From Paraglomus brasilianum (Eukaryota), in contig CAJVPI010000068.1 in NCBI GenBank assembly GCA_910592345.1, forward strand, positions 1-61,875: a DNA stretch of 61,875 nucleotides. The letters are read 5' to 3'. Under the pieces are notes generated by a model. The model was given only the letters and a program-made list of their open reading frames with translations, was not told the origin of the DNA and made no database searches. The translations under genes and the position numbers were made by a program. The first letter of the stretch is position 1; each line of letters opens with the position of its first letter. Shown here one piece after another: positions 8,700-53,161 of the stretch.

Positions 8700-8769
8700 T
8701 ATTATTGTTGTTGTTGTGTTATTATTATTATTGTTGTTGTTGTTGTTATTATTATTATTGTTGTTGTTG

Positions 8770-8800
<31 letters not shown>
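8700..8800. repeat. Compound (TTA)n/(TTG)n microsatellite
   Basis: Alternating runs of tta and ttg triplets over ~100 bp. Confidence 0.95.
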
Positions 8801-11800
8801 CTTTTATTAATCGGGATTTGACAAAAAGTTTTTTCCACTAGATTAGTATTAAACATTTTATTATTTATACCAAATATTTAACCAACTTTAATCACTTTTA
8901 CATTTACAAATTGTCTATTAGGCTGATGCAAGCCATTTGCGGCTACTTCAAACGACCAGCATCTTATTGTCTATAAACAGCAACCTTACCAATCGGTCTT
9001 ATTCTCAAACCAAGCCTCGTGAAAAAACTGTGCGGTAACCTAGAAGGAATAGACGCAACTTTGGGGTGGACGGTACACTAGACAACTCATATGAAATAAT
9101 ACAGTAATCAAGTGATAATACAGATGTAGCATTTATTTTCAAGTACAAACTTAGAAACTTAAGTTTTGCTTATTCGATAAATCAGTTAATTTGACCGCTG
9201 CAGTCGAACACTGATTAGCTTTATCCTCTGACATGTTCCATATTTAATTAATAAATAACTTCCAACTCGATCAACATACCTGCATTGCTGTGGGAAAAAT
9301 AAAGAGGGTAATCGGATGAATCGAAGATAATTAGGGACAGCACAACAAGTATGGTATACTTACACAGCATTCGAAAAAGACAACTTTTTTTTGTTTACCC
9401 ATTATTAACTATCAATTGTGCTTAATCGACGTATCCCTTGTTATCTGTTTCGATCAACAAACATTATGTGCGCACTGTGATTGACTTTCCGTTATAATAA
9501 TAACCTTATCACATGTGGATAAATGTAAATTACGTTCTTCACTGTCACTGAGGGGAAGAAGAAGAAGAAGAAGAAAAGAACAATTGGTGTCTTCTCTACA
9601 ATTAGTATTCGCAGGCGAGGGAACCAACTTAAATGATGGTAACTTGGTTCTGAGCAACATAAGGAAGGATTGGGTAAACGTCTCGCGTGAACGATAGCCA
9701 TATTAGTATACCAAGTCATTTTAAAGGATTGGGACTCGCTCTCGCAGTCTAACCATAAAAATATTCACTATGAAAAAATTTCATTGTTATTAACACACAT
9801 TGGAAGACATGTTTAACTCATGTCTATCACAACAGCTCATGTCTATCACAACTTGGTTCATCCACACATCTTTCACTTTCGCATATCACCACCAACCAAC
9901 CTCCTTTGCTATTTTCTCAAATAGCAACCAAGCACATGTCAACCGTGAGAAATTGGATGAGTAATGTCAGGATTGGGTTATTTTAAACGAGGGCAATCAA
10001 TGATAAGCTTATCGGCAAATCTCCCTCGCATTTGTCATATCACGTGGTGGATTGTACAATGGTGGAAAGATAGTAAAAAAGCACAGAAAGAACTCGATTT
10101 TACGAAGGTACAATATGTATGGGAATAGAATTCAACAACATGTAAAGGAAACGAATTTGTTACAATTAATAATTAAGTCAACAGCATTAATAGTTTTGCA
10201 TTTGCTTTCGATAGAGAGCTTCAAGTAGGTGGGGCATAAGGTTTATGTGATTGTTAGGAAAACGTTTCATCTCTACCATCCAATAGATACATAGTTCGTC
10301 AACAATAATCTAATTAATTTACCCGTCAAAGTCTTAACCTTTAACTGTCAATCGTTAATTGGTCCGTTCATCATTAGTTTTTTACTCAATGTTTAAAAAG
10401 CCCATTCGATAGTTTCAACAACGTCAAGATTATTTGCAAAATGTACCATGTGTAAAGTTTAATTTGAGTTTTCTTATTATATTGACACCAGAAAGGAAAC
10501 GGGCAGTGCACCAAACAACAGGGGAGCAAACTTCACTATTGTTGTAACATAAAGCGTAATTCGCATAATTCATAATACTCATTGACTATAATTATTTGTG
10601 CTGCTTTTAGCCCATTGATTAAGTCAAAACAAAAAAAAAAAGATAAGGTTTTTCCTTGTCCCGTTTCACAGATTTCCTTTATTTCTCCTTCCCCCCTCGA
10701 ACGAAAAAAAAAAAAGTTTAAAACCTTTTCGCTTTATTACTATCAGATCATGAATATTAAAGTTATTTAATAGAGGACAAACAAAATACAAGTTGGATAA
10801 TAAGCTACAAGACCGAGGATTGTTGTTATTTAGAAATAAAAATCATGCATATACTCCCTCACTTATGTAATTGATAATTAACGTTAGATTCTCTTATAGA
10901 AACTCACATTGCATGTATCCCCTGCCTATAATTACCATTCTCTTCGACGTTGTCTTTTCCCCGTGTATGACACGTACCAACGGAAAATTTTTTCCATTGA
11001 CGAGAGACGCTTTGGAGGAAATTTTCAATCAGGGGTAAAGAACCGCATGCGGAAAGAGAAAAGAACAAAAAGGAGAAGGAAAGTGTTTCATTTTTTGACG
11101 GGTGATAGATAACTATATGTAAATATTCCCTATCTGATAGGTTGCTTTGTCATCATGTAAATAAATAATACTATCAATCAGGTAATTGTTAGAATGCAGA
11201 TGGGTAATAGACTTTTTGAAAACGCGGATATGGATGTAAACGTGATTGGATGTTTGTTTGTTTCTTTTTTTCGTTTGACATCAACCCCTCCCCCTCCCCC
11301 CACCCCTCAATCTTCCCCTCAATCTCTTTTATTTTTCTTCTTCTTCCCGTCATTCATTATGCTCATATTGGGAATAGCCGAATGAACAGTTCGATAGAAG
11401 GCATCGATGGAACTATTTGGCGCTGTAATGTTTGATCACGTGATACTACACAGGGGTCTAGCCCTTTACCATGGAGGAGTGTTGTGCTCCTCAGCCCAAC
11501 AAGTTCCTCATAGGGCAATTCACCTGCAGATGTAGTCTGTCACTGTTCAACTAAAGCTTATAAATACATAAATAAACAAAATAAATAATGTTTATCAAAA
11601 AAGAAAATGTTTATGACCGCCCAGACGTTTCACAATTAGGAAGATATACGCCAAGACTGATATCTGTTTGTGTGCGGTCAGTCAGTCGTACATCCCATTG
11701 CATTTCGCAGGTCTTGGCCATTGGACAAATTCACCCGGAAACCCTCTTTCCTTTTACGCTTATTGTTATTCCCTTAAAAGCACAATCTGCTGCCAGCCCG

Positions 11801-22360: not shown

Positions 22361-24807
22361 TTAACTGTATGATTCCAACTCAAATATAGATTGACAAGGT
22401 TCTCCCATCTTATTATAAGCAGTTACCGTCATACTCACGTCACCGACGGATAGCTGGATATTAATCTCTCTAATCTCTCTGTCTAAGTACTCTACATCTG
22501 GAAGTCCCTATTGAGTGAAATTAATAAAGGCGAAAAGTAATTTACGTTAGTATTTTAAATAGATAAATTCAGAGGCTCAATGCTTCATAACAGTTACCAC
22601 AGTAAGAGTTCCATACAACTGAACCTCGTCCTCATCAAAATACGGCACATTCTCCGCGGTTTTGGACGGCCCGCCCGTACATGTGAGTGAGTCGTCCGTT
22701 TGCGTTTCCTCCTTTTTAGTATATATCTTCACTTTGAGTTCTTCTTGTTCCGGATCCACCTTAACCGTTGTTGAATAGATGGCGTTTATGCGTTGTTGAC
22801 CTCTTGGAACTATTGTTCTAAACAGAGGGACTGTCTCAGGGGGATTACCAACGTGATAGGACGAGTGAAGAGATGGTGAATATGGTGTGGGAGAACAAAT
22901 GCCATATGTTAAAGGTAAAACGCGTGTTTCCACCGAACTTGGATCAAGGGCTTGTCGTCAAAAGAAAAAAGAGAAGGAAAATATTACTATTACTGTCGAC
23001 AAAACTGTTAGGATTAACTAAAAAATACACACCATAGAATACCGAGCCTTTTAGTACGGCAGCTATCGGCTGAGCCGGAACTGTAATTTTCTTCACCTTG
23101 TCTTTAAACTCTTTTTTAATCCTCCTAACCAAATATTCGTTATTCGCAAACCCGCCAACGATAAACATAACGTCCAACTTTTCGCACTGAATAACCTGAT
23201 CGTTTATCAACTTGATAATCTTATCGACAATAGGGTCAAAGAAAGATTTAGCGACATCAAAAGTAACGTCTACAATCCATTCGACAGATTTGAGTTGGGA
23301 GAGGTAAGGCTCAGAGACGAGATATCTGAGATTGGGACAAAGTTCCAGTATATCTAATCGGAATGGCCGAAAATTTTCTTCGATGCCAGTAAATTCGTAT
23401 TTAACTTCCTTGATAAAAACATACAAAAGATATTTCCACTGTCCGTAATACTCTTTCTTCCACTTGGTCAATCCATCGATTCCAACAAGTTTGCCAAACC
23501 AAGCCTCAAATTCCTTCTCAACCTCCATTGCTCCACATATTTCGCCTGTCTGCATTGTGCATTCTCTTAATCTGTCATTTCCTATTAATTGCCTAACGGT
23601 CAATTGTACCGTTTCACCCCCACACGTTACAACAAGGAATTTGCACCCGACGTCTTCGTGATGGCCATGGAGTAACCGCATGCAGTATACGGCTGATGCT
23701 GCTGATTCGTAAACAAAGCGGAGGTTCGAGGAAGGGATTGAGAGGGCCTGCTCAAAGCATTCGCAAAGGAGTTTTTGGACAGAGGCAGAAAAGAACAACG
23801 GGATAGACAGTATAATAGAAGCATTTTTAGCTAAAGATAGAGATGGATAGACCGCCTGTAGAGCCTGTTGGAGTATCTGTAATGGAAAGAGATAAAATTG
23901 GCAATATTCTTAATATTCTCGTTGCACTTCGCTAACGGGTCGCTTTACTAACCGTTCCAAAATTTGTCAGATAGTCCACGACTGCCTTCTTCCATACTTC
24001 CAAGGCATCCTCCCCATCCTTGACAATATTCATCTTGAACGCTTCAAGTTCCTTGAAATTAGTATCCATTGAACCCATCAGTCGACGTCTTTTCCGTATC
24101 AATGACGCCTGAGCTTCTTCGCCCCATTGCACTGCTGTTTCTGTGATTGAATCATACAGGATACTAGTTGACGCTTTCAGATATCCTTGCCAACATGGCC
24201 TGTATTTGACAAGAGGCATAAGATAAACCAAATTCATGATAATGCAGACGGGATAAGAGCCATGCTCAAACTTACCAGTCATCAAAAATTTCAATCACAT
24301 TGGGATTTATGGCATCTGCATAGGCAAATCCTGAGGCTGTCGTCCCAAAATCTAAGAATCAAAGCGAATTGCGATAGTATCCCGCTTGTTATTCTCTTCT
24401 ATGTGCCATATTTATTTTCTTCACATTGAATTCTTCATTTCTCTGTAAGAATACTTACCAATTCCTACAATGACAATTGTTCCCTCCATTTCTTTACTTC
24501 TTTCGACGTTTTTTACACCATTTTTTTTTCTCGAATTTGATATTCTCCTATCTTTCTTTGTAGGCGTCTCTTTTTTCGTCTTGTCCTTTACACCAGATAC
24601 CGGAGACGCCGAACGAGTAGACGATGATGAATTGGATACTCGAGATACAAGCGTGGGACGTGTAGAGTAATGAGATGCCGGACGGGGACGGTTAGTTGCA
24701 TCGCTGCGGGGGACTCTGGCGGTGCTGATCAATAGCGGAGCACGAAATTCTTTTGGCACTGGTGAAGGTGGAGATTGGTCGGAATCTGACATTTCTGCTT
24801 GTTCCAT
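22361..24807 (-). CDS. Atypical Hsp70 (HSPA12-like actin-fold ATPase), 6 exons
   Basis: Spliced GI|DFGTTASGFAYA, KASTSILYD, VQWGEEA, ICGAMEVEKEF, MFIVGGFANNEYL, VPAQPIAAVLKGSVFYG, RVLPLTYGI; GT-AG introns restore one frame to TAA at 22361. Confidence 0.88.
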
Positions 24808-25439: not shown

Positions 25440-27593
25440 ATGGTTGATAGCAACTTACTCTCTCCAATATCTGCGTACGATTCTAGAGGTCGTTCCAGTT
25501 TTCATTCACGCTCACGTTCAGTAAGCGGAGATCGTCGTCTTCAAGGTCGATCAATTACGCATTCACCATCGCCTAGTACGAAAAAGACGAATATTATAGA
25601 TGGAAATGTTAAGATTGTTTTTGGAATAGGTAATGTTTCATGTTCATGACAGCATCTTGTGGAGGAAGTACTCTGCTTCTACTTCACATGTCTCTCTCGT
25701 CTATTCTGCGCTAATTCATACCCTCTCCTCCCCTTCACTATAGACTTTGGTTCAACGTCCACTGGTTTTGCTTTCTGCAATGTACTAACTCCAAACATTA
25801 TAACCTCATTCGACTCGTGGCCACACCGTCGAGGTTCATACAAAACACCATCGGCACTCTTGTATGATGACAACCATAAACTCCTTGCATGGGGTGCACC
25901 TGCTCTGGCTGTTCGTCCGGCTAGACTACGGACTGCGGATAGAAAAAATGATGGAGACATTTGGAATAAAAATAATAGTAAACCTGTTGTGAATTTTAGA
26001 AATGCCATTTGTCAAGGCAAAAACGGAGGAGACAAGCTTAACTTGCCTCACGGTTTAACTAGTCCTGATGTTCTTACTGACCATCTAAGACAGATTACCA
26101 AGGTAGGCATGGGATGTGTTTATTCTGGGAATGGAGCCATTCCAACGTAATTATTCCAACATAATTAATTATACAATATGGTCATTTTGACATTAATTCC
26201 TACTAAATGCTTTCTTTTCCCCAATCTTTCGCATAGATGATCGAGAAATCACTTGACTTTAGGTGGCCAGGAATATCACTTCACGAGGAAGGAGCGATAA
26301 TCATGGTAGTACCGAACGGTACTGATGCTGCAGATCACATGCATATACGGATATGTGCTGCTAAAGCGGGACTTATCAATGCTGAGAATGGATTATTAGA
26401 GATAGTAACTGAAAGTATGTTGCTATTCCAGACATGAATTAATCATGTAGCTTTTTACTCGTATACGGTTACTAACTTGCCATTTTGTGCTTTCTCTAGG
26501 CGTTGCAGGGGCTCTTTACTGCCAACCTTTAATATCTCACCATAATCTCAAAACTGATTTCTTCGTCCTCAATAGTGGCGGTATCAGCAGCACACTATCA
26601 ACCTGTAAGGTTGACGAGCATTTCAATGTCTCTTCGGTCACTGATGTACTTACCCTACCCATAGGCTCAATTGATGTCGACAAAGAGTTTATTGACTTTC
26701 TAGAACGTAAACTCGGCTCGATTGCTATCCAAACTCTTAAAGAACAACATGACGGCCAACTTCAGTATCTGTTATTATATTTCTTCGATCAATTAAAAAC
26801 ACATTTTACGGGAAATGCAGAGACCTACACGCCGCTAGGGCTGGATTTGAAGGAATTTTGTCCAGCTGTTTGTAATCATATTCGAACAGATCTTAGACTG
26901 TTTCTAGAAGAGGATGACTGGATGCTTTACATTCAATATGAAGACGTGAAATCCTTTTTTGACAGTGTGATCAAAAAATTGTGCCATGAAATAAGTACTT
27001 ATGTATTATGGGATAGAAGTCCACAGAAAGTATTGTTCTTAGTTGGCGGATTTGCAGAATCAGAATACTTTGTCAACAGCATGCGCGACACCCTCCATCA
27101 GTTTTCTCTCATTGCTGTTCCCAATCAACCAATTACGGCTACATCCCGTGGTGCAGTACAATATGGTCTAAAAATCACTCGTACGTATGCTCGTGTACTC
27201 TTTTACACGTATGGAATCCAAGTTACTCGTCCATGGATGGCAAACGATTTACCCAGGGAAAGGGATGTCAATGGAAATGTTACCGTCTTTCATCCCATAG
27301 TTCAACGTGGAACCGAAGTGCCCGTTGGTCGCAAGTTTACTAAAAACATACACGAATACCGCAAAAGCACGAATCAGCAACTTGAGTATAAAGTTTATCG
27401 AACGACAAAATATGTTGGGAAATACTGTGATGAAGAGGGAATGGAATTGGTTGGAACAGTAAAGGTTTTGAACGTCTGTCATGTTAGGAAAGTCGAATTT
27501 TCTTTGACTTTTGAAAAATTGGCTGTTGTTGCTACTGCTGCAGCCAAAGAATGGGCGAAAGCTTATTCCCAAGAGTTTGTGACTGAGCTGTAA
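25440..27593 (+). CDS. Atypical Hsp70 (HSPA12-like), 4 exons (25440-25629, 25744-26103, 26237-26414, 26500-27593)
   Basis: GI|DFGSTSTGFAF, YKTPSALLYD, LAWGAPA, IGSIDVDKEF, LFLVGGFAESEY, VPNQPITATSRGAVQYG, RVLFYTYGI, FHPIVQRGTEV. Confidence 0.9.
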
Positions 27594-31933: not shown

Positions 31934-33606
31934 TTAATATTTACAATAGCCGTAAGCCCTGGGAAATGCAGTAACATCTCTGATATTTTCCACCCCAGTC
32001 AGATACTGCAAAAATCTGTCAAACCCAACACCAAAACCACAATGAGGTACAGTACCGTACTTCCTTAAATCTAAATACCATGAATATTCCTCAGCAGACA
32101 GTCCAGCCTCTTTTATCTGCTTCTCCAATACCTCGTACCTTTCTTCCCTCAAACTGCCTCCAATGAGTTCACCGCCATGTGGAACAATCAGATCAACACA
32201 GGAGACTATGCTATCGTCGTCATCTCTCGCCCGCATGTAGAACGGCTTGAGATGTCGAGGGTAATCTGTAATGAATACGGGACGACGACAGTAAACGTTT
32301 GCAAGATATTTTTCGTGTTCCGATTGTATGGCGGAGCCCCATTTTGTTGGAAAGGTAAATGTTTGCCCAGAAGAGTTAAGAGCATCCAGTGCATCCTTGT
32401 ACGTCATCCTGACGAAAGGAGAGTTTACAGTCATTGATAAGCGGGACGTTAGAGTTGGGTTAAGATATTTGGCAAAATGGTGGATCTCAGCTGGACAAGT
32501 TTCTATTACGCGGTTTATAATAGATTGTAGAAGGTTCTCCACAAATGTAAGCATTTCATCTAAAGAATCTATAAATGCCATTTCGGCTTCAAGCATCCAG
32601 AATTCGGCTAGATGCCTAGAGGTCTGAGATCGTTCTGCTCGAAACGTAGGTCCAAAAGTATATACTTTTGATGCCGAACTAGATAATATTTCTAAATGTA
32701 ACTGACTGGAAACTGTGAGATAAACTGATTTGTCGAAGAATTCACTATCAGTCTCAGTCTCGGTCTCTTTATCTTTATCATTGTCGTTACCATTACCGTC
32801 CTTTTCGGTTGATACTTTAAATGCCTGTCCCCCCCCTTCACAGTCGGATGTAGTTATGATGGGGGTTTGAACATTGAGAAAATCGCGTTCCTATTAAATT
32901 GTGGTTTGAGCCTTTGATTGAGTTGTAGAGTAAGCGGTATTCGAATGAAATATGCACTCAATAGAGATGCGGTTCACCTGGAAAAAATTATGAAAGGCCA
33001 TTACAGTTGCATTACGCGTGCGTAATAATGCGCTGCCAGTGTTTCCTCGAGATCTAAAGTGGGATATCTCTCTAAGGAATTCTGGCGTGTGATGTTTCTT
33101 TTGCAACGGGTATGTCTGTGTATAAATAGTCATGAGTATGTGGTCAAAATCTGCAGATATCTTCTAACGAGATTAGCATACAGCGGCGTCACATTGTCCA
33201 TAAATCTTCATATCTTCTACTTGTAATTCTTTCGTTTGCTCTGTGCCTTTACTTTCAACGAGTTTGCCACGAAACTGTACGCTTGTCCCAGTCGTCAATC
33301 TTCAAATAGAAAATGATTGTTAAAATATTAACGCGGATTTAATTGCAAATAAACCATTCCTACAAACTTTTTGGCATGATGTTCTGAGAGAACTGCTTGC
33401 AATCCTTTCAGGTTTGAGCCATCAGCAATATTAGCAAAACAAATCTTCTTTTGCATTCGAATTGATCTTATCCATCCATTGACGCATACTCCAGTGTCTA
33501 TTGGGGTTGTTTCGATGATGTTCTTTATAGTCTTTGTCGACAAAGAACGGCTTAATAATTTACAGGTTCTGGCTGGTAATATTTTATTTTGGCTATAAAA
33601 CATCAT
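31934..33606 (-). CDS. NARS2: Mitochondrial asparaginyl-tRNA synthetase (NARS2/SLM5), multi-exon
   Basis: Presequence-like N-terminus; VNGWIRSIR...[13 protein letters not shown] fold; [79 protein letters not shown]. Confidence 0.95.
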
Positions 33607-33727
33607 CTTACGTGATGGCTTTCGCAAATCAAACTAGCATTTACCCTCCAAAAAAACTTTTTGTGGAAACGGGGGGCTGCATTGTCAAGCCACAACAACA
33701 ATCCACAAATATATCTAGATTCTGTTT

Positions 33728-35783
33728 TTACTCATTAATTTCCAAGATGCTAACTGGAATTTCGAAATTTTTACATGTCCACATCGTTTGTTTATTTGGT
33801 AGGGTTCGTTTACTAATGTATCTAAGTTGGGCAACTACTATTTCTCCGGAGAGAATCAAGGCTCCATCAATCATTTTCATCTCGATCCACAATTTCGGTA
33901 CTTGTACATCTCGGACGTTGGCGAGATTTTATCGAACGGTTTTTCGTGTTGTCTTTCTTGTTTTTCGATTCATCATATTCGACACCTCAAAAAGAGGAAT
34001 GATAATGGCATCAAATTCGCGAGTAAAAAATGCGCCACTCTTTATAAACTTCAGCTTGATTTTTCGTCGCATCTGAAAGATTGTCTTATCAAGTCGCAAG
34101 GCCTTTTTCTTCTTACATTTTGAACTAGAGGCAGCCAGCTTGTTCTTCATAGAAAGAAGATTATCCATATGCTTGCATAGACGATGATTCGTCCAATGTC
34201 GTATTGGCATGTGAAGGGTGTATGAACGCCAGGGTCAATGGAAACCGCATGAAACAGAACTATCGCTTGGGTTTCGCGGAGTTGTTTTTGCGTCTCGTAA
34301 CCCATGAAAATTTCCCATTCATTAGTTGTGCGAATATACATGTAAGTGATCTTGCAACCTGTCTTTTTTTTCGAATGAAGAGGCCACAAATCGCACACGA
34401 ATTATTATCGTGTCGTAAATCTTTTCGAGATCGAAATGACAAAGACGAACTTTATATTTTGGTTAATTATCTTGTCCCTAAAATTAGTTAAATAAAAACA
34501 AAAGTTTGCAGGCTTGCCTTGCCATGTGTACCTTAATATTAAGGCAGCATTCCAATACGCACAACAGTTCGCACGAGTTCACCCCACCCTACACCCCACC
34601 CCATACGCATGATTTTCGAACCTCTTGTCCTCACGCTCATTAACGCCTTTTTCTACACAAATATCCGTGTAAAGCTTAAGCTTATCTTTAATATTAATAG
34701 GTTGAGACGTCGATAATACAGTCCCCGGCGAAAATAATGGCGGTGACAATCGTCTTTACAAAAATCAGTTATCGGCTATTATAGTACAGTAATATGTAAA
34801 TGTATTATTACTTTTCTTATTTACTTAATAATATTAATATGTCAGACATGATTAAAAATACCCTTGTCTTTATTATTATATTAATATTTGCATTTTAATA
34901 ATCTCAGTGAGATTTGGATTGACTATAAACTTATAATAACAGTCTCAAATTTACTATAATAATAATATATAAATGTTCGCGTATTTAGACTTGTTAATAT
35001 TAATTAAAATTTGGAAGATTACAAATCAAAAAATATAAAATTTGCCTAATATAATCTAATCTGTTAATGTAAAAAAGCTTTTACATTTGCTTTTTGTCAA
35101 CTTACTCAAAATTTTATTCATAATATTAGGGTTTAATTAATATAGATCTAAAAGGAAGCCACTCCACAAACGACTGCACCTCGTCGTCGATACGTTCATC
35201 CAAGCTCTTCTGCAATCCTTGATGAGCCGGGACATAGAGAATGAGATGACGAAGAACTCGATGACTGAAGGGAAGGCGCAATTGGAGATGATGAATGACC
35301 TCATATCATTGATCTCTGCTTCGTTTATTGCTTGTTGTATCAGAATATTATTATTATTGGTTGGATTCATCGAAGAAATGATAACGATAGAACAAGTATT
35401 GGAACCCTTATTTTATCCAAACCCGTCGCGATGGACCAATATGCGAATCTTTGGTGTAGAAACGGCGGTATCGACTCCAGCGGACAACTGCATTATAATA
35501 ATAATAAGCATATCTCGGCCCCAACCACCGTTTCAATAACTGCTTTTGAAGGTGATTTGGATATACTTTGATTAGCAGCGCACGATGAAGTGTTGTCATT
35601 TGTTGCGTGCTGCTGTTGTCCTGATCTTACGCTTTTTTCCTTGTTTGGGGTTCTCGTCGGGTGACTCTTCTTCCTTGCTTGATTGCAAGGAAAGTTCGTG
35701 CTCGTCGGAGGTCGCTTCGTTGACGAAAACCATGAGTTTTGTAGTATGGGGGAGTGGGGTGAGGTTACGGCAGAGTCGGTCAC
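33728..35783 (-). pseudogene. Fanzor2/TnpB-like RuvC nuclease pseudogene (frameshifts, internal deletions, AT-rich insertion)
   Basis: OrfB-type N-terminal motif at 35599-35490; RuvC-I IDPG at 34239-34228; bridge-helix-like ALRLDKTIFQMRRKIK; IIIPLFE motif; RuvC-III DRDEN at 33887-33873. Confidence 0.82.
34717..34738 (+). mobile_element. Tc1/mariner-like TIR at the start of an AT-rich insert inside the IS607 relic
   Basis: TA|CAGTCCCCGGCGAAAATAAT followed by ~400 bp of very AT-rich DNA; no partner TIR found. Confidence 0.4.
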
Positions 35784-36130
35784 AATGGAATTTTGCGTTC
35801 TTTATTTGTTTCTTTATTTGTAGAGTCGGTCACAATGGATAACCACAATTTCTGAGACCATGGTGCGACTTTTCCGTTCCAATAAGGTCTTTAAGTTCGT
35901 AGGAGGAGCTGACGAGTTGTTCGTAGGGGGAGCTGACGAGTTGTTCGTAAGGGGAGCTGACGAGTTGTTCGTAGGGGGAGCTGACGCGTTGTTCGTAGGT
36001 TGGGGAGCTAAGGACATCCTTTTGCTTGAACCCTTTTTTGGTGGTGGTGGCGGTGACGGCGGCGGTGGTGTTAGCATCGAGGAGAGAGTTTATGTGTTTA
36101 CGATTTTGAATGATTTTGATTTTCAAATTG
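35690..36130 (-). pseudogene. IS607-type TnpA serine recombinase pseudogene
   Basis: KIKII...HINSLLD, KKGF..KQKD, RVSS, LKTLLER..VSEIVVIHCDRLCR (DRL motif), LMVFVNEATSDEHELS; overlaps the nuclease N-terminal extension (QNSWFS) in another frame. Confidence 0.7.
35895..36009. repeat. 24-bp tandem repeat, ~4.7 copies
   Basis: Unit gttcgtagggggagctgacgagtt. Confidence 0.95.
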
Positions 36131-37135
36131 CAATGGATATTTGGGGGATAATGTCTTTAAATATGTTTATGGTCGGTAATACCAAGGCAAATCCGTCCGA
36201 GTGAGGAATGATTGGCTCCAAAGATACAGTGCGCGAAAATACGCGTCTAATCAAAACAGTCAACTAATACGTTTTGTGATATGTATGTAACACCGACAAG
36301 AAAACTCAGTCACATAACTTTGCTACTTGGGTCATTGTTTTATTTGTTTACACTTTTGGTTTTGTTATTAAAAATACAACGACAGGGTTTTGTGATTGAC
36401 TGACGTCGCAAAATTATAACCACTCTGTTGGCAAAAGACGCCTACACTTTACATAAATCAACTTTTATTTTGCCTTCTTCTAAGTGTACGATATTAAGAA
36501 GCTTAAAATAAAAGTTTTTGGAAAGAGCTTCAATTTCTCGTTGCACAATTAAATAAGTAACAAAGCCGGGCCGATGTCAAAACCAGAATAAGAGCAATGG
36601 TCATCATTGAATGATATTAGATTTTATTAAATGTTAAACGTCAAGAGCCCACATACGTGAAGTCAAGTCATCCAATTTTCACGAAAATTATCTAGTAATC
36701 ATAAGTGTCGCTGACCCGTAATATTTGAGCGCGGAGGAATACGTCATCGTTTACGCTTGATTGCAATTGGTAACTTGCCTTGTATTTATTATTATATTGT
36801 GTCACTCTTAATTCTAACCACGAGGCGGCAATCGTTTCGCTTTCTTTCTCTCTCTCTTCTTGTAGCTTGGTTTCTAATAGCTTTGGTTGATTTCGAAGAC
36901 TTCTCTCATTTGGATTGACGTATTACCGAAAACTGATAAGGGTTTGTTTGTTATTATTATTATTGTCTAATCAAGTAGCTTAATTTGTGAAACGTTGATA
37001 CGACATACCCCAATTTAGCACTCTGTAATAATAACTTTATTCAGTATATACCATTACGTGTCGATACTAATACACATATTATTGGTCAACCCAGTTTCGT
37101 CTTCTTCAAAATTTTTCTGCTGCTAGCTACTGGAA

Positions 37136-39591
37136 ATGCTAGATTTGCCGACGGCTCAATCAGACGGAGAAGCATCAAGACGACGCGAATCACACGACGA
37201 TCAGGGACCAACCAACATGTTTGACCCTTCGGAGGGATACAGCGAACTGAAACGAAGAGAATTTAACGATGAGCAAGACAAGAAAGAATTGGGTTTTGAT
37301 GACTGGTCGAACAGCCCTACAACAGTTGCCGACAGTTACCCTGGGCTGAGCATGCAGGATAAGAAAAATTTTGCGCTGCTTGTTACGTTATGTAAGTAAA
37401 TATGAAAGAGATCACAAAAAAATCAATGTTCGAGTCGGTTTCCTTTGTTATAACGTATTCGGTTTGTGTCCATTCAACAGATCTTCTCCAAGGAATTCCT
37501 GTGGGCTTAGCATCCGGATCGATCCCTTTCCTCCTCAAATCCAAGCTTTCTTACGGTCAAATAGGAATATTTTCACTGGCTTCCTATCCCTATTCCTTGA
37601 AACTTTTATGGTCGCCTATTGTAGATGCGACATATTCTAAAAAAATTGGAAGAAGAAAGAGTTGGATCATTCCTATTCAGATAATGATGGGAAGTTTGCT
37701 CTTCTGGCTTGGATTGCACATTGATGAAATGTTTACGAATGTGAGTTATAGTAATGATTGAAGCATACTTGTTTAGGTTGGAGTGAACGATTGTGTGACT
37801 GAATGTAAGAAAATTTACTAGAAACCGGACATTCCTACTTTGACATTCTTGTTCTTTACCTTGATTTTTCTTTCCGCTACACAAGGTAAATCAACTGAAT
37901 GTTTGTGTTCTAATATTAAATAACTCAAACAATACAAATACTAACTCGTAACTTTATTCAATTTTTAGACGTCGCAGTAGACGGTGAGTTCTTCTGGCCT
38001 GATCCGCATATCTATTGGAAATGGTAGTATCTCAACTTTCACGTGATATATTTAATCAATAGGTTGGGCTCTCACATTGTTATCGAAGCCAAATCTATCA
38101 TACGCTTCTACCGCGCAAACGGTTGGGTTAAACACAGGATATTTCTTGTCGTTTACCGTGCTTTTGGCATTTCATTCTGCTGAGTTCAGGTAATATGAGT
38201 TAAGTGTGGCGTGGAGAGGAATGCTGCGTAGTAACACCGACTGACTCACATGCATTCTAGCAATAAATATTTCAGAAGTGAACCGAGGGATGAGGGAATA
38301 CTGCAGCTGGGATCATATTTGACATTCTGGGCATTTATGTATTTTGCAGTTACGATATGGCTTATATTTGGCAAAGATGAAGAACACATTCAGCATGACG
38401 ACGATATGATGGACGTCAAATCTGTTTATACAACAATATGGAATATCTGCAAACTACCTCGTAAGAATATAAATACATTATCAGGATAGAGGGTGTTTGA
38501 TATAATGATGAGACCGATTTAATTCTAACAATTTATTGCTATAGATATGAAGAATTTCATTTTGGTCATGCTTTTAGCCAAGATCGGATTTATAGCTAAT
38601 GAAACTGTGACTGGTCTGAAACTCCTTGAGAAAGGATTCAACAGAGAAGACTTGGCCCTTACTGTCTTGATAGATTTTCCTTTTCAGATAATATTCGGTT
38701 ATTATGCAGCCAAATGGAGTAGTGGTCCACAACCTCTTAATCCAGTTGAGTGTATTAATGTTTATTGAGAATACTTTTTACTGATAGATGATACTGACAT
38801 CATTATATATATTGAAGTGGCTAAAGGCATTTTATGGAAGATTGGCGTTTGCTGTTACCGGAATGTTAGTTGTATTGGCATTTCCAAGGGATGGGGTTGT
38901 GTCAACTGGATACTTCCTTCTCGTAATCGCTAGTACTGTGTTCAATTCGTTCATGAGGTGGGCGTTGATTCATTTCTGTATTATATGTAGTAAATACCGT
39001 GCTAACCTTAACCATAATGTGATTGTTTTATTTAGCACTGTGCAATTTGTCAGTATATCTGCATTCTTTACTACAATTGCTGATCCAGTCATTGGAGGAA
39101 CTTACATGACTGTAAGTTACGAAGTTCTTTGAACATATTTGTAATGAAATGCTGATTTAATAATGGCTTTAATTATTGTTAGCTATTGGCTACCTTCAGC
39201 AATTTTGGTGGAACTTGGCCAAGATTTTTCGTGCTGGGTGCGGTTGATTACTTTACAGATGCAACGTGCTCAGTATTGGATGGAAATAGCGCAGTATTGA
39301 ACTGTGTCGGTGAACAGGAAAAAGTATTATGTAAGGATAATGGAGGGACTTGTATTATAGATCGAGACGGATATTATGTTGTATCCGTGATTTGCATAAT
39401 TTTAGGCGCATTGGCGCTGTTTGGTTTTATAAGGCAGGAGGTCAAAACTTTGCAAAGTAAGTTCATTTACATTTGTAGTAATATCACTTTGTTCTTACTA
39501 TACTCATTCATGTTTGTTTGCCGTTCCTCTATTAGGATTGGAAATAAAGAAATGGGGTCTATATAGTCATCGTTCTAGAAGAGGAAGTTAA
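37136..39591 (+). CDS. SLC33A1: Acetyl-CoA transporter 1 (SLC33A1/AT-1, MFS), ~11 exons including a 15-nt microexon at 37969-37983
   Basis: LLQGIPVGLASGSIPFLLK, FSLASYPYSLKLLWSPIVD, GRRKSWIIPIQ, ATQDVAVDGWALTLLS, YASTAQTVGLNTGYF, IADPVIGGTYMTLLATFSNFGGTWP, DGYY. Confidence 0.95.
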
Positions 39592-40340: not shown

Positions 40341-43300
40341 ATGGAGCCCACAAACACGCGATATTACAATACTGCCGCGAAATACACTTGGCCACGCCGG
40401 CACCAACAGTTCGTGGACAGCACGTCTGGTTGTTTTGGAGGGCTGCTATACAATGAAACGGCTGCAAGAGGGAAAGAGTGGGAGTATTTGAACGAAGCAC
40501 TTGGAAGTAAGAGATTAACGTCCATAATCGTTAACATGAAATGGTTATTTACAAAGTCTCTCGTTGCACGAAATTAATATGATCCATCAACTAATTTATC
40601 TTTGTTCTAAAGAAAGCCGAAAGCTGAGCGCAACAGCACTTTCCCCCGTATACCAGGTCTTTCCTCACACTCGTCAAAATTTTTCAACTATAAGTGCTGA
40701 CAGAGCCAATGAATTTTCTGTGGTAAGCAAATATATTTACGGCATAATTGGAGAACTTTGTTTCTTTTCTGTTAATACAGTCAATAAAATGAATATGAAT
40801 TTGATGTTGATTCTGGCATTGATAAGCATAGACCAACTATCTGAAGGAGGAATGCCCTGGATTCGATTTTCCCATCGAAATGGTTACTGATCTCGTTCGA
40901 GAAAGCATGCTAAGTCAGATAGAGTGGGAGAAAAATGATCCATATCTGGGCAATCGAATCGCTTCCGGAACGTTTGATAATGGAAAGAAAAAAAAGAAGT
41001 TCCTCGCTTTTCCGATGGGGCTCCATGGGAGTGAGCTGAGTAGGTTGATTCTTAAATTTTATTACCACCGTCCGTTATAATATTTCTTATCAATGTCTGA
41101 TCGTTTTATTTAATGTAATATAAGACTTATCGCTACTCGATTGGAACGAGAGCGCCTATGATTCGAAATCCGATATAGACCAGTATGTATTGCAACCGTC
41201 AGCAGAACCTGTACTGCAATTTAAGGCTCCGATCAGGCAAATTGCTTGTTCAGAAGATTTTGGTTCAGCAAATCCATGTACGCAATTTGTCCTCTTCATC
41301 TCGCATATTATGATTGCAATTAATCTTTTAATTTTTGCAGGTTTGATGGCGGTGAGAACGACGACAGCAACAACGTTTCTGACACTCGTTCCAAAGGAAA
41401 AACGCGATGGTAAACGAGACTTTCCGCGTTCAACGAAGGCTATTGCGATAGATTCGGTTTCTAATATGGGATTGGCCGCAACATCAGAACACATGCATGT
41501 TACATTTAACCCGTTATTATACGGAGAAGCTGCCATTATTGATGGAAGTGGCAGCGTTCATATATGGAGAGCTATGTTACAAAAGAAAATTGCGTGAGTT
41601 ATTTCAGCGAGCGATCTTATTTCTTGCAACAATGAAATTAACGTTGTGTTCTTGTTATTGAATTCTGCTATTAGGCGGTTTGATAAATTTGAGTATAATC
41701 TTATCCAACTGTCAGATCGCTCCTGCGATACACCTCAGAAGGACTGGTGGGCTCGTTGCGAATATGGGGCGCACCCACAGTCGTTGTTTGTAGCTTCTCG
41801 AAGAGAAGCGAGCGTTCTGGACTTTAGGGTAAGTATACCTTTTTATGGTAACGGATTCTAATCCCGAAACTGACTATTCACAATCAGCAGACTCCATCCA
41901 AGACACATTCTTCCGCATTGTTTGTTTCAAAGCCAAACGAAAATATCTATGCATTCCAACGTTCCCCGGCATGGCATTCGTTTGAATCGGTAATAGCTAC
42001 AGACAAACGTGTTATCGTTCTCGATCAACGATTTCCAAAACGTCCCCTAATAGATTGGTTGTCGTATTATCCGCAAAACCCACCCGGAGGAATAGAAGTA
42101 ATATCAAATAATGACGGTAATATAACTAATAGAATGCGCGTATTCTTTACAACTTAACTCCCACCTAACTGCAATATATTCCTTCCCTAAGTCACTGTTG
42201 CAGTATGTTGGTCCGCCGTAAGTGCCAAGATCAACGCATTTACCTTTAACCGGACACCCTCGGGTACTATCAGCTCGCCGATAACTCCAACAGCTATCAC
42301 GTCCTTTCACCAAGACCCGCTCTTTCTTAAATCTCGCAATAGTATAGCTGATTGTGACTTTCTTGCAGAAAAGCAATCCCTCCCCGAAGAACTCATCTCT
42401 CCGAGTCTTCTTCCGCCGTTATCATCCGTCCTTCTCCTAAAAGGTCAATTAAAGATGCGCGATTTCTCCAAGGAAAAAAAACATCGCACGGGAAGAAATC
42501 AAGAAAAATTTAGGTTTAAGAGCGAGGAGGTTTGCAGCGTCCTGCAACTTACGAGCACTGGTGGAATATATGCTCAGGTAGTGCACTTTGGATTGGTAGA
42601 AAAGTTAGGAAGTTTGCAGCATACAGACGAAGAGAAGAACCGAGAATTATTTATTAAAAAAGAGTTTTCGAAAGAGCTATTAGATTTGGAGGCCAAGTCT
42701 TTAGAGGAAAAGGTTGAGAACAACAAGTTTCATCAATTATTACAATTTAATCGATTATGGGACTTTACAACTCGGGAGTTCAAAGGCTCGCTACTGACAG
42801 AATCTGATTTATCCGCATTAAATGGGCGTGCATCAGAACACGGCAGAGGCGAACAGCCTTATTCTACAATACAATCTCAACCCCAGTGCAATTCATCTTC
42901 TGTTCGATTTCCACAATCATCATGTCTTGCACCGAATTCATCATTCTTTCCTTTGTATCTTTCAGCCACCTTCGTTTCTTGGGATTCTCTCTTTTATTAT
43001 CTCAATAGTTATGCTCATTTTCATAACGTAATTTTACGTCCCTCATCATCTACTTATTCTCCTACCGGCTTCCTTACGTCTGTTCGATTTTATTGTGTTT
43101 TGTTGAAGTGTACATGGACGCTTGTTTGCAAAACTAACAAATCAAACGGGAACGTAGTTTTGACGCAATTTTGGGATATGCATAGTCACAAGCTAGAAAA
43201 TATAATAACAAATGACGATTCTTCTGTTAGCGATGAAGAGGCCCGTGAAAAGGATAAGAGCATTAAAGGTGTTAATAAAACCAAATACACCGGTTTAATG

Positions 43301-44429
43301 AAACGCTTCACGAAGAATTTGACGGGTACTAGACGATTTACAAAGGCTGTTACGCAGACAAGTGGCATAGAGTTATCAAAAGAGCAAGTTAATGAAGCCA
43401 GTCAAAGTGTGGGACATCCAGTTACTGCGTATCCTTGAATTTGGGAATTTTTCTTTGAGTATCAACATTCAATCATTTTGTTTCTCTTAACTCTTCTTGA
43501 TATTTATCAATAGCTTCGAAATAAGAAAATATTGCTCAGGCGACTCGATGCAACAATTCATATATGAAGACTCGGTAAAAAACTCTGACCGCACGCCTAT
43601 TGATTGGAATTATGCTGATCCAGGCGTATTTCTTGAGAATCTTCCGTCAAGAAATGAAAATTCTTTGTTTTTAGGTACTCTGAAGAATTTTGGCTTCCCA
43701 GTTATGGAAGACTGTGTTGCTCCAACAGTACAGACGTTAAGGGAAAACATTCAAGAAAACCTATGTAAAGCGTATATCGCGCCGATTACAGACGGCTCTT
43801 CAACTACATCAGCAAATGATTTGAAATTTCGCGAGTTTGCAATATCCGAAATCGCAAACGACCTTCTCCTGAGTCAGGAAATAATCAAACCATGGATGGG
43901 TAGCACGGATGAATACCAATACGTTTCTGATCTGTACCACTTTTCTAAACAAGTGGCCACTTCAGAACGGTGGAATGCGTCAGGAATTACGTTACGCAAA
44001 TCAGCATGCGATAAGGAGATAGAATGGTCTACAGCTACTCGATGGTTGATAGATGATTGGAAATTGGGTCAAAATTATCGGGATTACGTATTCGTGACAC
44101 CGAATAAGGCAAGGAAGGAGAATGGCGGACCTACGAGAGAGATGAGCGTTGGGAGTACAACAGATATATATGCTGATCTCCATCATAGTTTGGTAGATAT
44201 TTCAGCGTCAATTGGCGAAATAGTTAATACAAATAACGGTGAGAGAAGAGAGGTTATGATGGACGACGAGCTACTGATAGTTGAACCATCAACTGCTGGA
44301 TCTGCAATGGACGTGGGTATCATCGATGATGAGCGAACGCCAAAAGATATTACGACAGTTATAGCTACTTCTGAAAATCAGAAAAAAGAGAAACCAAAAA
44401 AGAAGAAACCGCGACGTATGGGATTTTAG
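40341..44429 (+). CDS. RRN6: RNA polymerase I core factor subunit Rrn6/TAF1C, multi-exon, includes a U12-type intron
   Basis: PIRQIACS, LMAVRTT, HMHVTFNP..GEAAIIDGSGSVHIW, CEYGAHPQSLFVASR, VIVLDQRFPKRPLIDW, VLQLTSTGGIYAQ, LIDDWKLG, C-terminal KKPRRMGF. Confidence 0.85.
43429..43513 (+). other. U12-type (minor spliceosome) GT-AG intron
   Basis: 5' splice site GTATCCTT, branch site TCTCTTAAC at 43483-43491, 3' TAG; removal gives in-frame ACT GC|C TTC GAA (TAFEIRKY). Confidence 0.85.
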
Positions 44430-48969: not shown

Positions 48970-50166
48970 TCAAGTTCCAGGCCCATTTGCATCCATGAAC
49001 TCTCCAAATTCATTTGGTGATGGTGATCTCGAACGACGAGCCGAGGGAAGTTGCATTGTACCTTTTTGTAGTTTCTGTCTCATTGAAGCTGCGGATGGAG
49101 GAGGAGGAAGAAATGGTATGGATTCTACAAGGGTGGAGAAGGGATGTAGAATTTGAAATCACAGTGAGTGTAGGTTCCCGGAACTGTTAAGATGTAGAAA
49201 GGATTAAATTTATATACACGTACGATCGGGCCCAGAACTTGAACTTGTCTGTGCGACAGGACGTGATCGCCGCTGGGGATTCTGAGTAAATCAACAGGTT
49301 CTGTTAGTACAAGCGAAATCCCTCCTCGAGAACTTGATTCCAATACCAACTCTTCTTACCCCGCCAATATTAATGCTAATCGTCTCTCCTTCTTTCAAAC
49401 TAAAATCCATTTTCGGTAACGCAGCTCCTTCTTTTTCCTTCTCCACCCGTTCCTTGGTTTCATTCTCCACTTTCACATGCTTTACATGATCTTGAAGGGC
49501 AACTTGGAAATCAAACGCTTCGCTGCGTTCTTGAAAACCAATTCCAATAAATGCATGGCGACCTTTATCTTCAATTCGGAGTACAAAGTAGCGTGAGGAA
49601 TCGAGGACTGGTTCGACCGAGTTTGTTGCAGGATCATGGAGACATTCAGCGAACAGTTCGCCTTTAACGTATAGACGATATTAACAAGTGCCCATAAGAA
49701 GAAAGTCGGAGAAAGAAACTGTTATTTATTGATAGCAGAAAGACAATGAATAGATTCTTTGTTTTAATAATATTAAACCTGTTGTCGAATCCTCTAGCCG
49801 AATGAAGCATTTGTTGCCTTTTGCAAATACGCGTAGCCGGCCCTTCCATAAGAACGTGCCCGCATCTCCCCATTCTTGCGCTCTGTTAAAGTGCAATTAT
49901 TTCAGCAGCATTTCATAAATAATTGATTTAGTCATGTAACAAGTTGAATAGTACCGATATCCTCTGCTCGAAGTTCGTGGGGGAATGCGATACACTAGAA
50001 ATTGTGAGGCGTTGATAAATATTCAAGTTAAAACAATCGCATCGATCCGAGTTGCATTCGTAATAAAGATTTTTATGTATCGAATGGTCTGTTTTATTTT
50101 TTATTATCATTTTTTACCAAGACATTCTCTTATAACAAGCAGAACACTTTCATATTCTTCGTCCAT
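48970..50166 (-). CDS. NECAP: Adaptin ear-binding coat-associated protein (NECAP), multi-exon
   Basis: [106 protein letters not shown]. Confidence 0.96.
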
Positions 50167-52337: not shown

Positions 52338-52889
52338 CTAGACTTCATCCTCAGTAAGTAACATGTTGGGTATCCCATCCATGATGGTATAAACGTGATT
52401 GCAATTGAGACATGTCATCTTGCCTTGCTCAATGTGTGTCTGTAAAGAAAGAAGAGAAAAAAGCATTGTAAGATGGAGGTAATGATAGTAGATATCACGT
52501 GGCGAACCAAATAATAATCAGACTTACTTCCAGCAAGGTGTGGTGAAGTGTCCTGAGAAAAGCCTCGTCAATCTGTTCTGGCAGTTTCTCCGGAAGACTC
52601 GCTAATCCGAGCTATATAAGGCAGATTCATGTCAGTACAAAATGTTTACTATATTTGGAAACTGTAAATCAACAAAGTTATGGCCTGCACAAACTAATAC
52701 CACACCGACCTCAGCAGCAGTCTTGACGAGACCATCCCACTTTAATTTCGACAACATGTTTCTTAAAAATGGTTCATTGAATTCAGTTTCATGAATTCTA
52801 ACGACAGTCTCCGAAAATTGTAAAGGGGAGTTTTTTACGGTACATCCCTTGACGTGGCATTGAAGCATATTATGAGTGATTAAACGCAT
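52338..52889 (-). CDS. TRM112: Methyltransferase activator Trm112, 3 exons
   Basis: MRLITHNMLQCHVKGC, EFNEPFLRNMLSKLKWDGL, FLRTLHHTLLE|THIEQGKMTCLNCNHVYTIMDGIPNMLLTEDEV*. Confidence 0.97.
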
Positions 52890-53161
52890 GTTGTTATATG
52901 TATATATCTGTATATAGGGGCGGCAGTGTTTTTGTGGGGGGCGATAGATACTAATAGATGATGAAGAGGAATATCGAGAAATCAAAGCCAGAGGTTCAAG
53001 TTTATATAGATTTTTTTCGGATCAGACCTTATTATTGTTACACGTATGCTGTATGTCATCATAGACATTGTTTAAATTATTGACTTGATTCTTATATTAC
53101 TGCACACCTTACACAACATCAACGAACGAACAAGCAACTCCCGGATATTAACGACATTGAC

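What the first reader, a model, noticed from the sequence alone, without database searches (positions are those of the whole stretch)
33728..36150. Fossil IS607-type TnpA + Fanzor2 RNA-guided nuclease element in a fungal chromosome
Seen in the sequence, on one strand and in the expected order: serine-recombinase fragments (RVSS, LKTLLER...VIHCDRLCR, LMVFVNEATSDEHELS) overlapping in another frame a disordered extension (QNSWFS). This leads into TnpB motifs: IKVYPNHLQKQLLKRWLG..YNAVV, FRSRKDLR, RuvC-I SIDPGVHTPFT (34239-34228), a bridge-helix-like segment, IIIPLFEVSNM, a degenerate Zn-ribbon YKYRNCG and RuvC-III DRDEN (33887-33873). Established: Fanzor2 nucleases derive from IS607 TnpBs and carry Pro at the canonical RuvC-II Glu position, with the catalytic Glu relocated downstream. 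The IIIPLFE motif fits this, and the segment expected to hold the relocated Glu appears deleted here. Inference: an OMEGA-type element that still carried its recombinase colonised this lineage, and intact copies with their own omegaRNA and TAM may exist elsewhere in the genome or in relatives. The ORF track hides it because it is split over about seven short ORFs.
Basis: partly seen in the sequence, partly recalled or inferred. Interest (0 to 1): 0.88.

Follow-up and report, generated by a model that had tools for sequence, protein, structure and literature searches.

The report
Dead fungal IS607-Fanzor2 transposon with intron
This is a broken copy of a known kind of bacteria-derived jumping gene (an IS607-type recombinase plus the RNA-guided DNA cutter Fanzor2) lying between two ordinary genes of what is likely a fungus; it has lost key catalytic parts of both enzymes, but its family has whole-looking relatives and a predicted spliceosomal intron, and likely kept jumping after gaining that intron.

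Summary
Confirmed as a relic of an IS607-type element (TnpA serine recombinase + Fanzor2). Every named motif is present; the pieces match close relatives at 84-91% nucleotide identity in aligned columns. Those relatives carry DPG, the relocated Glu, both CxxC and DRD, match ApmFz2 best, and group with named fungal proteins, one already listed as a Fanzor in a published table. This copy is dead: the TnpA catalytic motif, the relocated-Glu/first-CxxC segment (106 bp), the first guide-scaffold hairpin and the right end are deleted, and 703 bp of unidentified repeated DNA interrupts Fanzor. Corrections: the 'RVSS' sits in a tandem repeat, not at the catalytic position; QNSWFS aligns to an ordered part of ApmFz2. 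New here: the Fanzor start (36077); a GT-AG intron remnant (34503-34478) shared with relatives; the family's right end from four loci with four different flanks; many diverged copies in the same organism. The long +1 TnpA/Fanzor overlap is clade-wide, also in bacteria and viruses. Left end, TAM, splicing and intact copies in this genome are untested. This scan found similar fungal relics before on other DNA. New member of a known kind; modest interest.

The parts
36100..36760 (.). Upstream repeated DNA; candidate left part of the element (left end not defined; may be a different repeat)
   Evidence: Depth stays above flank level up to about 36760 in X1, X5, X6, and one X1 contig of 1844 nt matches 36571-36760 and then diverges. 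No TnpA HTH remnant found, no match to fetched loci and no clear phased motif array.
35588..36100 (-). IS607 TnpA (serine recombinase) remnant: linker and KKGF, catalytic YARVSS deleted, then KTLLER..VSEIVV, HCDRLCR, LMVF..DEHELS and C-terminal tail, in several frames
   Evidence: tblastn with TnpA relatives 50-85% identical per piece; profile positions 110-135 at 35897-35820 and 130-168 at 35787-35689; gap after KKGF against P0143/P0145/P0179/P0182.
35895..35999 (-).
   Evidence: TRF period 24, 95% matches; the unit resembles QLLSS..PTYE of TnpA and NNSSAP of the Fanzor frame in relatives; contigs of X1 lack the array (joints).
35411..36077 (-). Fanzor2 5' part: start codon 36077, Pro-rich N-terminus, PYWN..KLWL and QNSWF motifs (overlapping TnpA in the +1 frame), basic patch, WED/HTH segment IKVYPN..WIK
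   Evidence: Start matches P0196/P0205/P0185; tblastn P0036/P0040/P0185; HTH_OrfB_IS605 E 0.004; NSW aligns to ApmFz2 residues about 80-85, inside RuvC-R, residues 65-91 (PMC11832414).
34708..35410 (.). 703-bp foreign insertion (one T ambiguous at the ends), itself repeated; origin unknown
   Evidence: Absent from L002, L003, L004, L006; skipped by contigs of X1, X5, X6 and covered above flank depth; no terminal inverted repeat; no protein match for the one frame searched; coding score near zero in all six frames.
34400..34707 (-). Fanzor2 REC/WED middle part (QPI.DKLKLY, VRTVVRIG, GTHGK, RDKIINQN, FRSRKDLR), frameshifted and thinned by deletions
   Evidence: DNA alignment to L003, L006, L002; tblastn P0019.
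34478..34503 (-). 3' remnant of a predicted spliceosomal intron (T-rich tract, branch-like motif, AG acceptor); donor site deleted
   Evidence: Matches the 3' end of GT-AG introns of 76, 76 and 94 nt (85-92% A+T) in L003, L004, L006, whose removal restores the frame read through in L002 and P0019. Splicing not shown.
34228..34239 (-). RuvC-I IDPG, catalytic Asp kept
   Evidence: invariant DPG in alignment A1, aligned to GIDPG of ApmFz2.
33932..34183 (-). Helical REC2/bridge segment and RuvC-II strand IIIPLFE (Pro at the canonical Glu position)
   Evidence: 58-66% identity to P0185/P0019; helices 464-529 in the model of P0185; Pro aligned to Gly of ApmFz2.
33873..33931 (-). Deletion junctions (23 bp, then 106 bp removing the relocated Glu and first CxxC), second CxxC with Cys to Tyr, RuvC-III DRDEN
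   Evidence: alignments; coordinates.
33834..33873 (-). 3' tail of ORF and stump of the predicted guide-RNA scaffold; first hairpin (29 bp) and the right end are missing
   Evidence: unique flank begins by 33827 (X1 contig of 7008 nt).
31934..33606 (-). Neighbour (not part of the element): class II tRNA synthetase gene, read as asparaginyl-type from recalled motifs, start about 220 bp downstream of the relic
   Evidence: PF01336 and PF00152; start region.
37136..39566 (+). Neighbour (not part of the element): acetyl-CoA transporter gene, divergent
   Evidence: PF13000 in three ORFs.

Best explanation
This is a dead copy of a multicopy IS607-type (IS607EU) transposon with overlapping TnpA and Fanzor2 genes in what is likely a fungal chromosome; the intact element would have moved by serine-recombinase cut-and-rejoin and would have used Fanzor2 with a right-end guide RNA to cut vacated sites. 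Shown here: identity of both genes, their +1 overlap, the lesions, the insertion, the intron-like segment shared with relatives, the family's right end, many diverged copies in the same organism. Inferred from characterised IS607 and Fanzor2 systems: TnpA excises and inserts at a GG dinucleotide without target duplication; the guide scaffold overlaps the last codons of Fanzor and runs about 45 nt past the stop to the right end, with flanking DNA as guide; the TAM is likely short and G-rich; cutting the empty site restores the copy by recombination. Inferred from my data: one sub-lineage gained a spliceosomal intron and kept transposing as DNA afterwards. This copy then decayed by about 30 small deletions, a tandem expansion and a 703-bp insertion, and can make neither enzyme nor a guide.
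For: Relatives; NCBIfam NF033518 passed by 4 of 4 TnpA relatives and NF040570 by 7 of 9 nuclease relatives. ApmFz2 best match: profile E 3.7e-54 vs 1e-14 for ISDra2 TnpB; Foldseek E 2.2e-21 vs 3e-5 for Fanzor1 SpuFz; VIA Z 21.2, rmsd 3.8, 427 aligned, the only top row reaching into the N-terminal domain. Tree: window copy inside a 54-row clade (SH 0.997) without any viral or GTDB locus; its named rows are Cetraspora, Diversispora and Borealophlyctis; the Borealophlyctis protein begins and ends like KAJ3297308.1, labelled Fanzor in Table S5 of PMC10711439. Lesions: 26 gaps in the window against L003 in the 3' part alone. Multicopy: 259 contigs of run X1 laid in four identity bands (46/70/92/51), depth rising from 143-698 on flanks to 15,400 on the element, same pattern in X5 and X6. 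Right end: L001, L002, L003, L006 share one terminus and then differ (4 of 7 loci); 2 of 4 continue with G, giving CGG as reported for IS607-type IStrons (PMC13565253). Intron. Host: intron-split genes and a Gti1/Pac2 gene in the window.
Against: Left end, insertion-site dinucleotide and TAM were not determined. No empty site was seen. No nuclease relative reaches the NF038280 (IS607 TnpB) cut-off (0 of 9). VIA Z of ApmFz2 and ISDra2 TnpB differ by only 1.0. Scaffold folding is weak (z -2.18 and -1.76; 0 of 29 pairs with compensatory change in 4 near-identical rows). Contig depth is not a copy number and run X1 may be the source sample. All 7 metagenome loci are partial and none shows both genes intact; no locus with DNA for a whole element was obtained. 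Splicing has no RNA support, L003 and L004 share the same intron sequence, and whether L002 is genomic or spliced is unknown. Gilbert and Cordaux found no evidence of IS607 transposition in the eukaryotes they studied (PMC3673617).
Confidence: 0.88

Rival explanations
1. The TnpA-Fanzor2 cassette was cargo of another eukaryotic DNA transposon (Fanzor2* in the sense of Yoon et al.), and the repeated DNA at 36100-36760 belongs to that carrier.
For: About 600 bp of repeated DNA upstream of the recognisable TnpA, no defined left end; such captures are published for algae and molluscs (PMC10711439).
Against: No long inverted repeat pairs the two ends of the region; whole-looking TnpA relatives exist; the right end lies close behind the stop and ends CCG(G) without a visible TIR.
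Confidence: 0.06
2. The stretch is a passive piece of an endogenised giant virus or of a bacterial endosymbiont or contaminant and never moved inside the fungal genome.
For: In a midpoint-rooted FastTree the fungal-type TnpAs nest among viral loci (SH 0.985 with 4 viral rows), which fits a viral route of arrival.
Against: Flanks are intron-split host genes without viral genes; closest viral or bacterial nucleases are about 2 substitutions per site away against 0.6 for the family; intron; many copies; shared right end with different flanks.
Confidence: 0.03
3. The relic is kept as a guide-only ('ghost') locus or as a regulatory element for the neighbouring tRNA-synthetase promoter.
For: It ends about 220 bp before the neighbour's start codon; ghost loci are known for Fanzor1 (PMC10432273); the same insertion junction is seen in a soil metagenome contig (X5 record 19).
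Against: The first scaffold hairpin and the right end are deleted; decay is spread evenly over the copy.
Confidence: 0.02
4. The 5' (TnpA/HTH) and 3' (RuvC) halves are two unrelated elements separated by 700 bp.
For: The 703-bp gap with no Fanzor similarity.
Against: L002, L003, L004, L006 and contigs of X1, X5, X6 join the two sides directly.
Confidence: 0.01

Closest known systems
ApmFz2 (mimivirus L79, PDB 9B0L) in its IS607 element (PMC11832414, first fifth read; PMC10530073, passages)
   Same: DPG, inert residue at canonical RuvC-II, relocated Glu, C4 zinc finger, DRD, N-terminal domain with the NSW motif, upstream IS607 TnpA.
   Different: About 22% identity in the structural alignment; Pro instead of Gly; family proteins 580-650 aa vs 520; nuclear fungal location with an intron in one sub-lineage; guide scaffold appears to overlap the ORF end instead of extending 200 nt past it; this copy is dead.
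IS607EU / Fanzor2 elements of eukaryotes (PMC3627910 passages; PMC13565253 passages; PMC3673617 passages)
   Same: Serine recombinase plus Fanzor2, no TIR or TSD seen, CGG-like right end.
   Different: The elements with TnpA named in the passages read are from amoeba and viruses; this family is fungal, multicopy and intron-bearing.
Fungal Fanzor2 proteins in published catalogues (PMC10432273 Supplementary Table 1; PMC10711439 Tables S2, S5; rows seen)
   Same: FZ2 rows from Diversispora, Cetraspora, Rhizophagus; the Borealophlyctis member of this very clade is listed as Fanzor; a Cetraspora gene model fuses TnpA and Fanzor parts.
   Different: Listed as proteins only in the rows I saw; I saw no description of this family's ends, intron or copy structure (searches; only the first two hits per term of the tables were read).
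Pro-Fanzor TnpBs of cyanobacteria and other bacteria (PMC10711439, parts 2-5 of 7 read)
   Same: DPG + relocated Glu, IS607 TnpA, long +1 overlap of the two frames (59 of 68 bacterial loci with TnpA).
   Different: Separate clade; no intron.

Membership tests
Fanzor2 | DPG motif at RuvC-I | tested here: met
   Window 34239-34228; invariant in 29 of 29 rows of A1.
Fanzor2 | Canonical RuvC-II Glu replaced by Pro or Gly | tested here: met
   IIIP in the window aligns with ICIG of ApmFz2 through relatives.
Fanzor2 | Relocated Glu six residues before the first CxxC | tested here: met
   Met in the closest relatives (NEAYTSKTC; 94 of 104 held proteins with a full RuvC half); deleted in this copy, so the copy itself cannot cut.
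Fanzor2 | Closer to TnpB/ApmFz2 than to Fanzor1; HTH_OrfB_IS605 present | tested here: met
   Model of P0185: 9B0L E 2.2e-21, SpuFz1 E 3e-5; PF12323 in relatives and weakly in the window.
Fanzor2 | Eukaryotic genomic residence | tested here: met
   Intron-split host genes on both sides, Gti1/Pac2 gene; clade's named members are fungi; intron in the gene. Host species not determined.
Fanzor2 | Structured omegaRNA from the right end, expressed and bound | tested here: inconclusive
   Hairpins predicted in relatives but z only -1.8 to -2.2 and no covariation; largely deleted in the window; no small-RNA data.
Fanzor2 | RNA-guided, TAM-dependent DNA cleavage | not testable with these tools
   Needs a biochemical or cell assay on an intact relative.
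IS607 / IS607EU | TnpA with N-terminal HTH and serine-recombinase domain upstream of the nuclease | tested here: met
   Relatives pass NF033518 (4 of 4) and match IS607-family TnpA structures best; in the window the C-terminal half remains, HTH and catalytic motif do not.
IS607 / IS607EU | GG crossover at both ends, no TSD, no TIR | tested here: inconclusive
   Right end CCG in 4 loci, followed by G in 2 of 4; left end not found; no empty site seen.
IS607 / IS607EU | Repeated TnpA-binding motifs near the ends | tested here: inconclusive
   Only loose 8-mers recur in 36150-36800, without regular spacing or a chance control.
Fanzor1 | Expanded REC/WED architecture and association with non-IS607 eukaryotic transposons | tested here: not met
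   IS607 TnpA partner; Fanzor1 structures rank 44-49 in the fold search.

The most novel reading that the evidence does not exclude
A fungus-wide IS607-Fanzor2 lineage became a true nuclear transposon: it gained a spliceosomal intron, kept moving as DNA by its own serine recombinase afterwards, reached tens of copies per genome, and still has intact members (641-648 aa Fanzor2 with all catalytic residues, whole TnpA, compact right-end guide). That would give a natural system for showing serine-recombinase transposition and RNA-guided homing in a eukaryotic nucleus, and new eukaryote-adapted compact nucleases.
Probability: 0.45. Interest if true: 0.55.

Novelty: new member of a known kind. Interest (0 to 1): 0.27.

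Why it matters
The locus itself is ordinary transposon debris. Its value is as a pointer to the family. A 2013 survey found no evidence of IS607 transposition in the eukaryotes it examined (PMC3673617, passages), and a 2026 review calls IS607EU the only eukaryotic DNA transposon with a serine recombinase (PMC13565253, passages). Intron-bearing copies with one shared right end and different flanks, many copies in one organism, and whole-looking Fanzor2 and TnpA ORFs make that question testable in fungi and offer further compact RNA-guided nucleases. Fungal Fanzor2s and intron-bearing Fanzors are already in print, which caps the surprise.

Tried and rejected
No whole genome is held for this window, so no genome-wide tblastn or family consensus. 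Rfam: 0 matches at E up to 1 in 33000-37500. Pfam/NCBIfam on single fragments: nearly blank. P0005 against viral contigs: 0 of 14 candidates. The insertion: no hit among 1.84 billion representatives for the one 59-aa frame searched (five other frames not searched), no tblastx hit and only weak AT-rich blastn hits to fetched loci, no TIR, no coding signal; the ESM Atlas did not complete. RNase H-like and Tc1-HTH-like looks of that stretch are recalled impressions without support and are rejected. TnpA HTH upstream: scores 21-28, no credible remnant. The relocated-Glu counts used a pattern off by one residue and are dropped; one search has the corrected counts (58 of 69 viral, 48 of 65 bacterial, 94 of 104 protein rows). 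The long TnpA/Fanzor overlap as a fungal novelty: rejected, since 50 of 54 viral and 59 of 68 bacterial loci with TnpA have an open +1 overlap of 200 nt or more (loci were the best hits to an alignment that includes this region, some are duplicates, and an open frame is not proof of translation). Donor of the fungal lineage: nuclease tree unresolved (support 0.42 above the clade), TnpA tree leans viral; both midpoint-rooted FastTree runs without outgroup or topology test, so no claim. A closer read of the left end by a second laying of contigs was not obtained, so the left end stays open. Literature: 'Fanzor'+'Glomeromycot' and 'Fanzor'+'Mucoromycota' gave 0 papers, but supplementary tables do list such proteins; none of six genus names occurs in the 2 supplements of PMC10530073; one scanned supplement of PMC10432273 could not be read.
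Full report
Observation. Single fragments barely register with Pfam or NCBIfam, but fragment 33932-34234 finds four proteins at 67-76% identity (4 of 164 candidates). One member of their clusters (P0005) finds 1553 relatives among 2570 candidates, of which 120 were listed; the closest named ones are from Diversispora, Cetraspora, Gigaspora, Rhizophagus and Borealophlyctis. Seven metagenome loci (7 of 80 candidates) align to the window at 84-91% identity in ungapped columns for the four aligned. Profiles of relatives score 70.7 and 17.9 bits on the region against at most 5.5 in 200 shuffles (partly circular).

Anatomy. Reading downward: repeated DNA of unknown role from about 36760. Then TnpA remnants 36100-35588, in which KKGF is followed directly by KQKD, so the catalytic LYARVSSV of relatives is gone. 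The Fanzor frame starts at 36077 with a Pro-rich N-terminus like P0196 and P0185 and runs in the +1 frame over TnpA through PYWN..KLWL and QNSWF. The latter aligns with ApmFz2 residues about 80-85, within the ordered RuvC-R segment of that structure (PMC11832414, first fifth read). After the WED/HTH segment a 703-bp insertion (35410-34708) interrupts the gene; four loci and contigs of three runs lack it. Then follow the REC part, an intron stump (34503-34478), RuvC-I IDPG, the long helices, IIIPLFE, a 106-bp deletion that removes the relocated Glu and first CxxC, a second CxxC with Cys to Tyr, DRDEN, a 29-bp deletion and a tail that stops matching at 33834. The relic lies between divergent host genes for a class II tRNA synthetase and an acetyl-CoA transporter.

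Family. Four of four TnpA relatives pass the IS607 transposase cut-off and seven of nine nuclease relatives pass the guided-TnpB cut-off; none of nine reaches the narrower IS607-TnpB cut-off. Alignment A1 has invariant DPG, E-x-Y-T-x-K-T and DRD, the Fanzor fingerprint of Yoon et al. (PMC10711439, parts 2-5 of 7 read); Pro or Gly at the canonical position is from Jiang et al. (PMC10530073, passages). ApmFz2 is the best solved match by sequence, profile and predicted fold (model of P0185, mean pLDDT 67.6). Seventeen of the 208 proteins held are 540 aa or longer with all motifs. In a FastTree of 227 rows the window copy (135 residues, X at breaks) sits in a 54-row clade (SH 0.997) with no viral or GTDB locus; the clade's Borealophlyctis protein is listed as a Fanzor in Table S5 of PMC10711439. 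The +1 overlap of TnpA and nuclease frames is shared by 50 of 54 viral and 59 of 68 bacterial loci with TnpA, so it is inherited, not a fungal invention.

Intron, ends, copies. L003, L004 and L006 carry GT-AG segments of 76, 76 and 94 nt at one position; removing them restores the frame that L002 and P0019 read through. L001 and the window keep the 3' part. L001, L002, L003 and L006 share a right end about 45 nt (less in L006) behind the stop and then show four different flanks; three of the four carry the intron, which argues for DNA-level movement after intron gain (inference; the loci may come from different species). Predicted scaffold hairpins overlap the last codons but have weak statistical support; the window lacks the first hairpin and the end. 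In run X1 (same organism label; possibly the source sample) 259 contigs fall on the region in four identity bands, and depth on the element is many times that on the flanks, as in two soil runs (contig depth is not a copy number). Some of these contigs hold segments deleted in the window, but no whole intact copy was seen.

Mechanism. Shown: composition, lesions, family placement. Inferred from IS607 work (PMC6188088 passages; PMC10711439; PMC13565253 passages): TnpA-mediated excision and insertion at GG, guide RNA from the right end, G-rich TAM, restorative homing. None of this can happen at this copy.

Prior knowledge. Fanzor2 in IS607-like elements: PMC3627910 (passages). Fz2 'broadly in fungi': PMC10432273 (passages; supplement rows). 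Introns in Fanzors: PMC10530073 (passages). IS607 in eukaryotes without evidence of transposition: PMC3673617 (passages). I found no main-text treatment of this fungal family, but catalogues list its members. This scan has reported similar fungal relics in other genomes and none for this DNA.

Verdict. Real, correctly typed, dead; new member of a known kind. Interest 0.27 for the locus; the family-level case (intron-bearing, once actively transposing nuclear IS607-Fanzor2 with intact members) has probability about 0.45 and would deserve about 0.55.

Noticed in passing
window 34708-35410: 703-bp insertion that is itself repeated in X1, X5, X6; has a 270-bp stretch open in three frames, an AT-rich middle and a GC-rich end; no TIR, no protein match. 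Unidentified repeat.
   Followed up: partly
window 35772-35839: An 18-bp direct repeat 50 bp apart brackets a 12-bp tandem (35798-35821), splitting the TnpA HCDRL motif into two copies.
   Followed up: partly
P0183: A degenerate relative from another collection shares several of the window's shortenings in TnpA, hinting at a deleted sub-family or an orthologous copy in a close strain.
   Followed up: no
L001, L003, L004, L002: Many premature stops in these relatives look like CGA-to-TGA changes, as expected from CpG methylation decay (seen by eye, not counted).
   Followed up: no
L008 3995-5906: In a 1.02-Mb viral contig the Fanzor2 ORF starts 7 nt after the TnpA start, so TnpA is overlapped almost end to end.
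   Followed up: partly
P0044: A Cetraspora gene model fuses the C-terminal half of TnpA to a partial Fanzor2; probably a gene-prediction artefact over a decayed copy.
   Followed up: no
window 52632-53021 (-): Weak CxC4 (KDZ-transposase-associated) match, E 0.005; possibly another transposon relic.
   Followed up: no
window 22944-23909 (-), 26451-27593 (+), 42191-44429 (+): Long ORFs (321, 380, 415, 312 aa) with only weak or no Pfam matches; 42191-44429 follows an Rrn6 match at 41124.
   Followed up: no
window 4031-5182 (-), 49291-49680 (-), 54865-55527 (-), 57860-58216 (-): Ordinary host genes: Gti1/Pac2, DUF1681, phosphotransferase (APH family), F-box.
   Followed up: no
window 8700-8809, 54246-54325, 59185-59234: Microsatellite and short tandem arrays (periods 3/27, 27, 21).
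   Followed up: no
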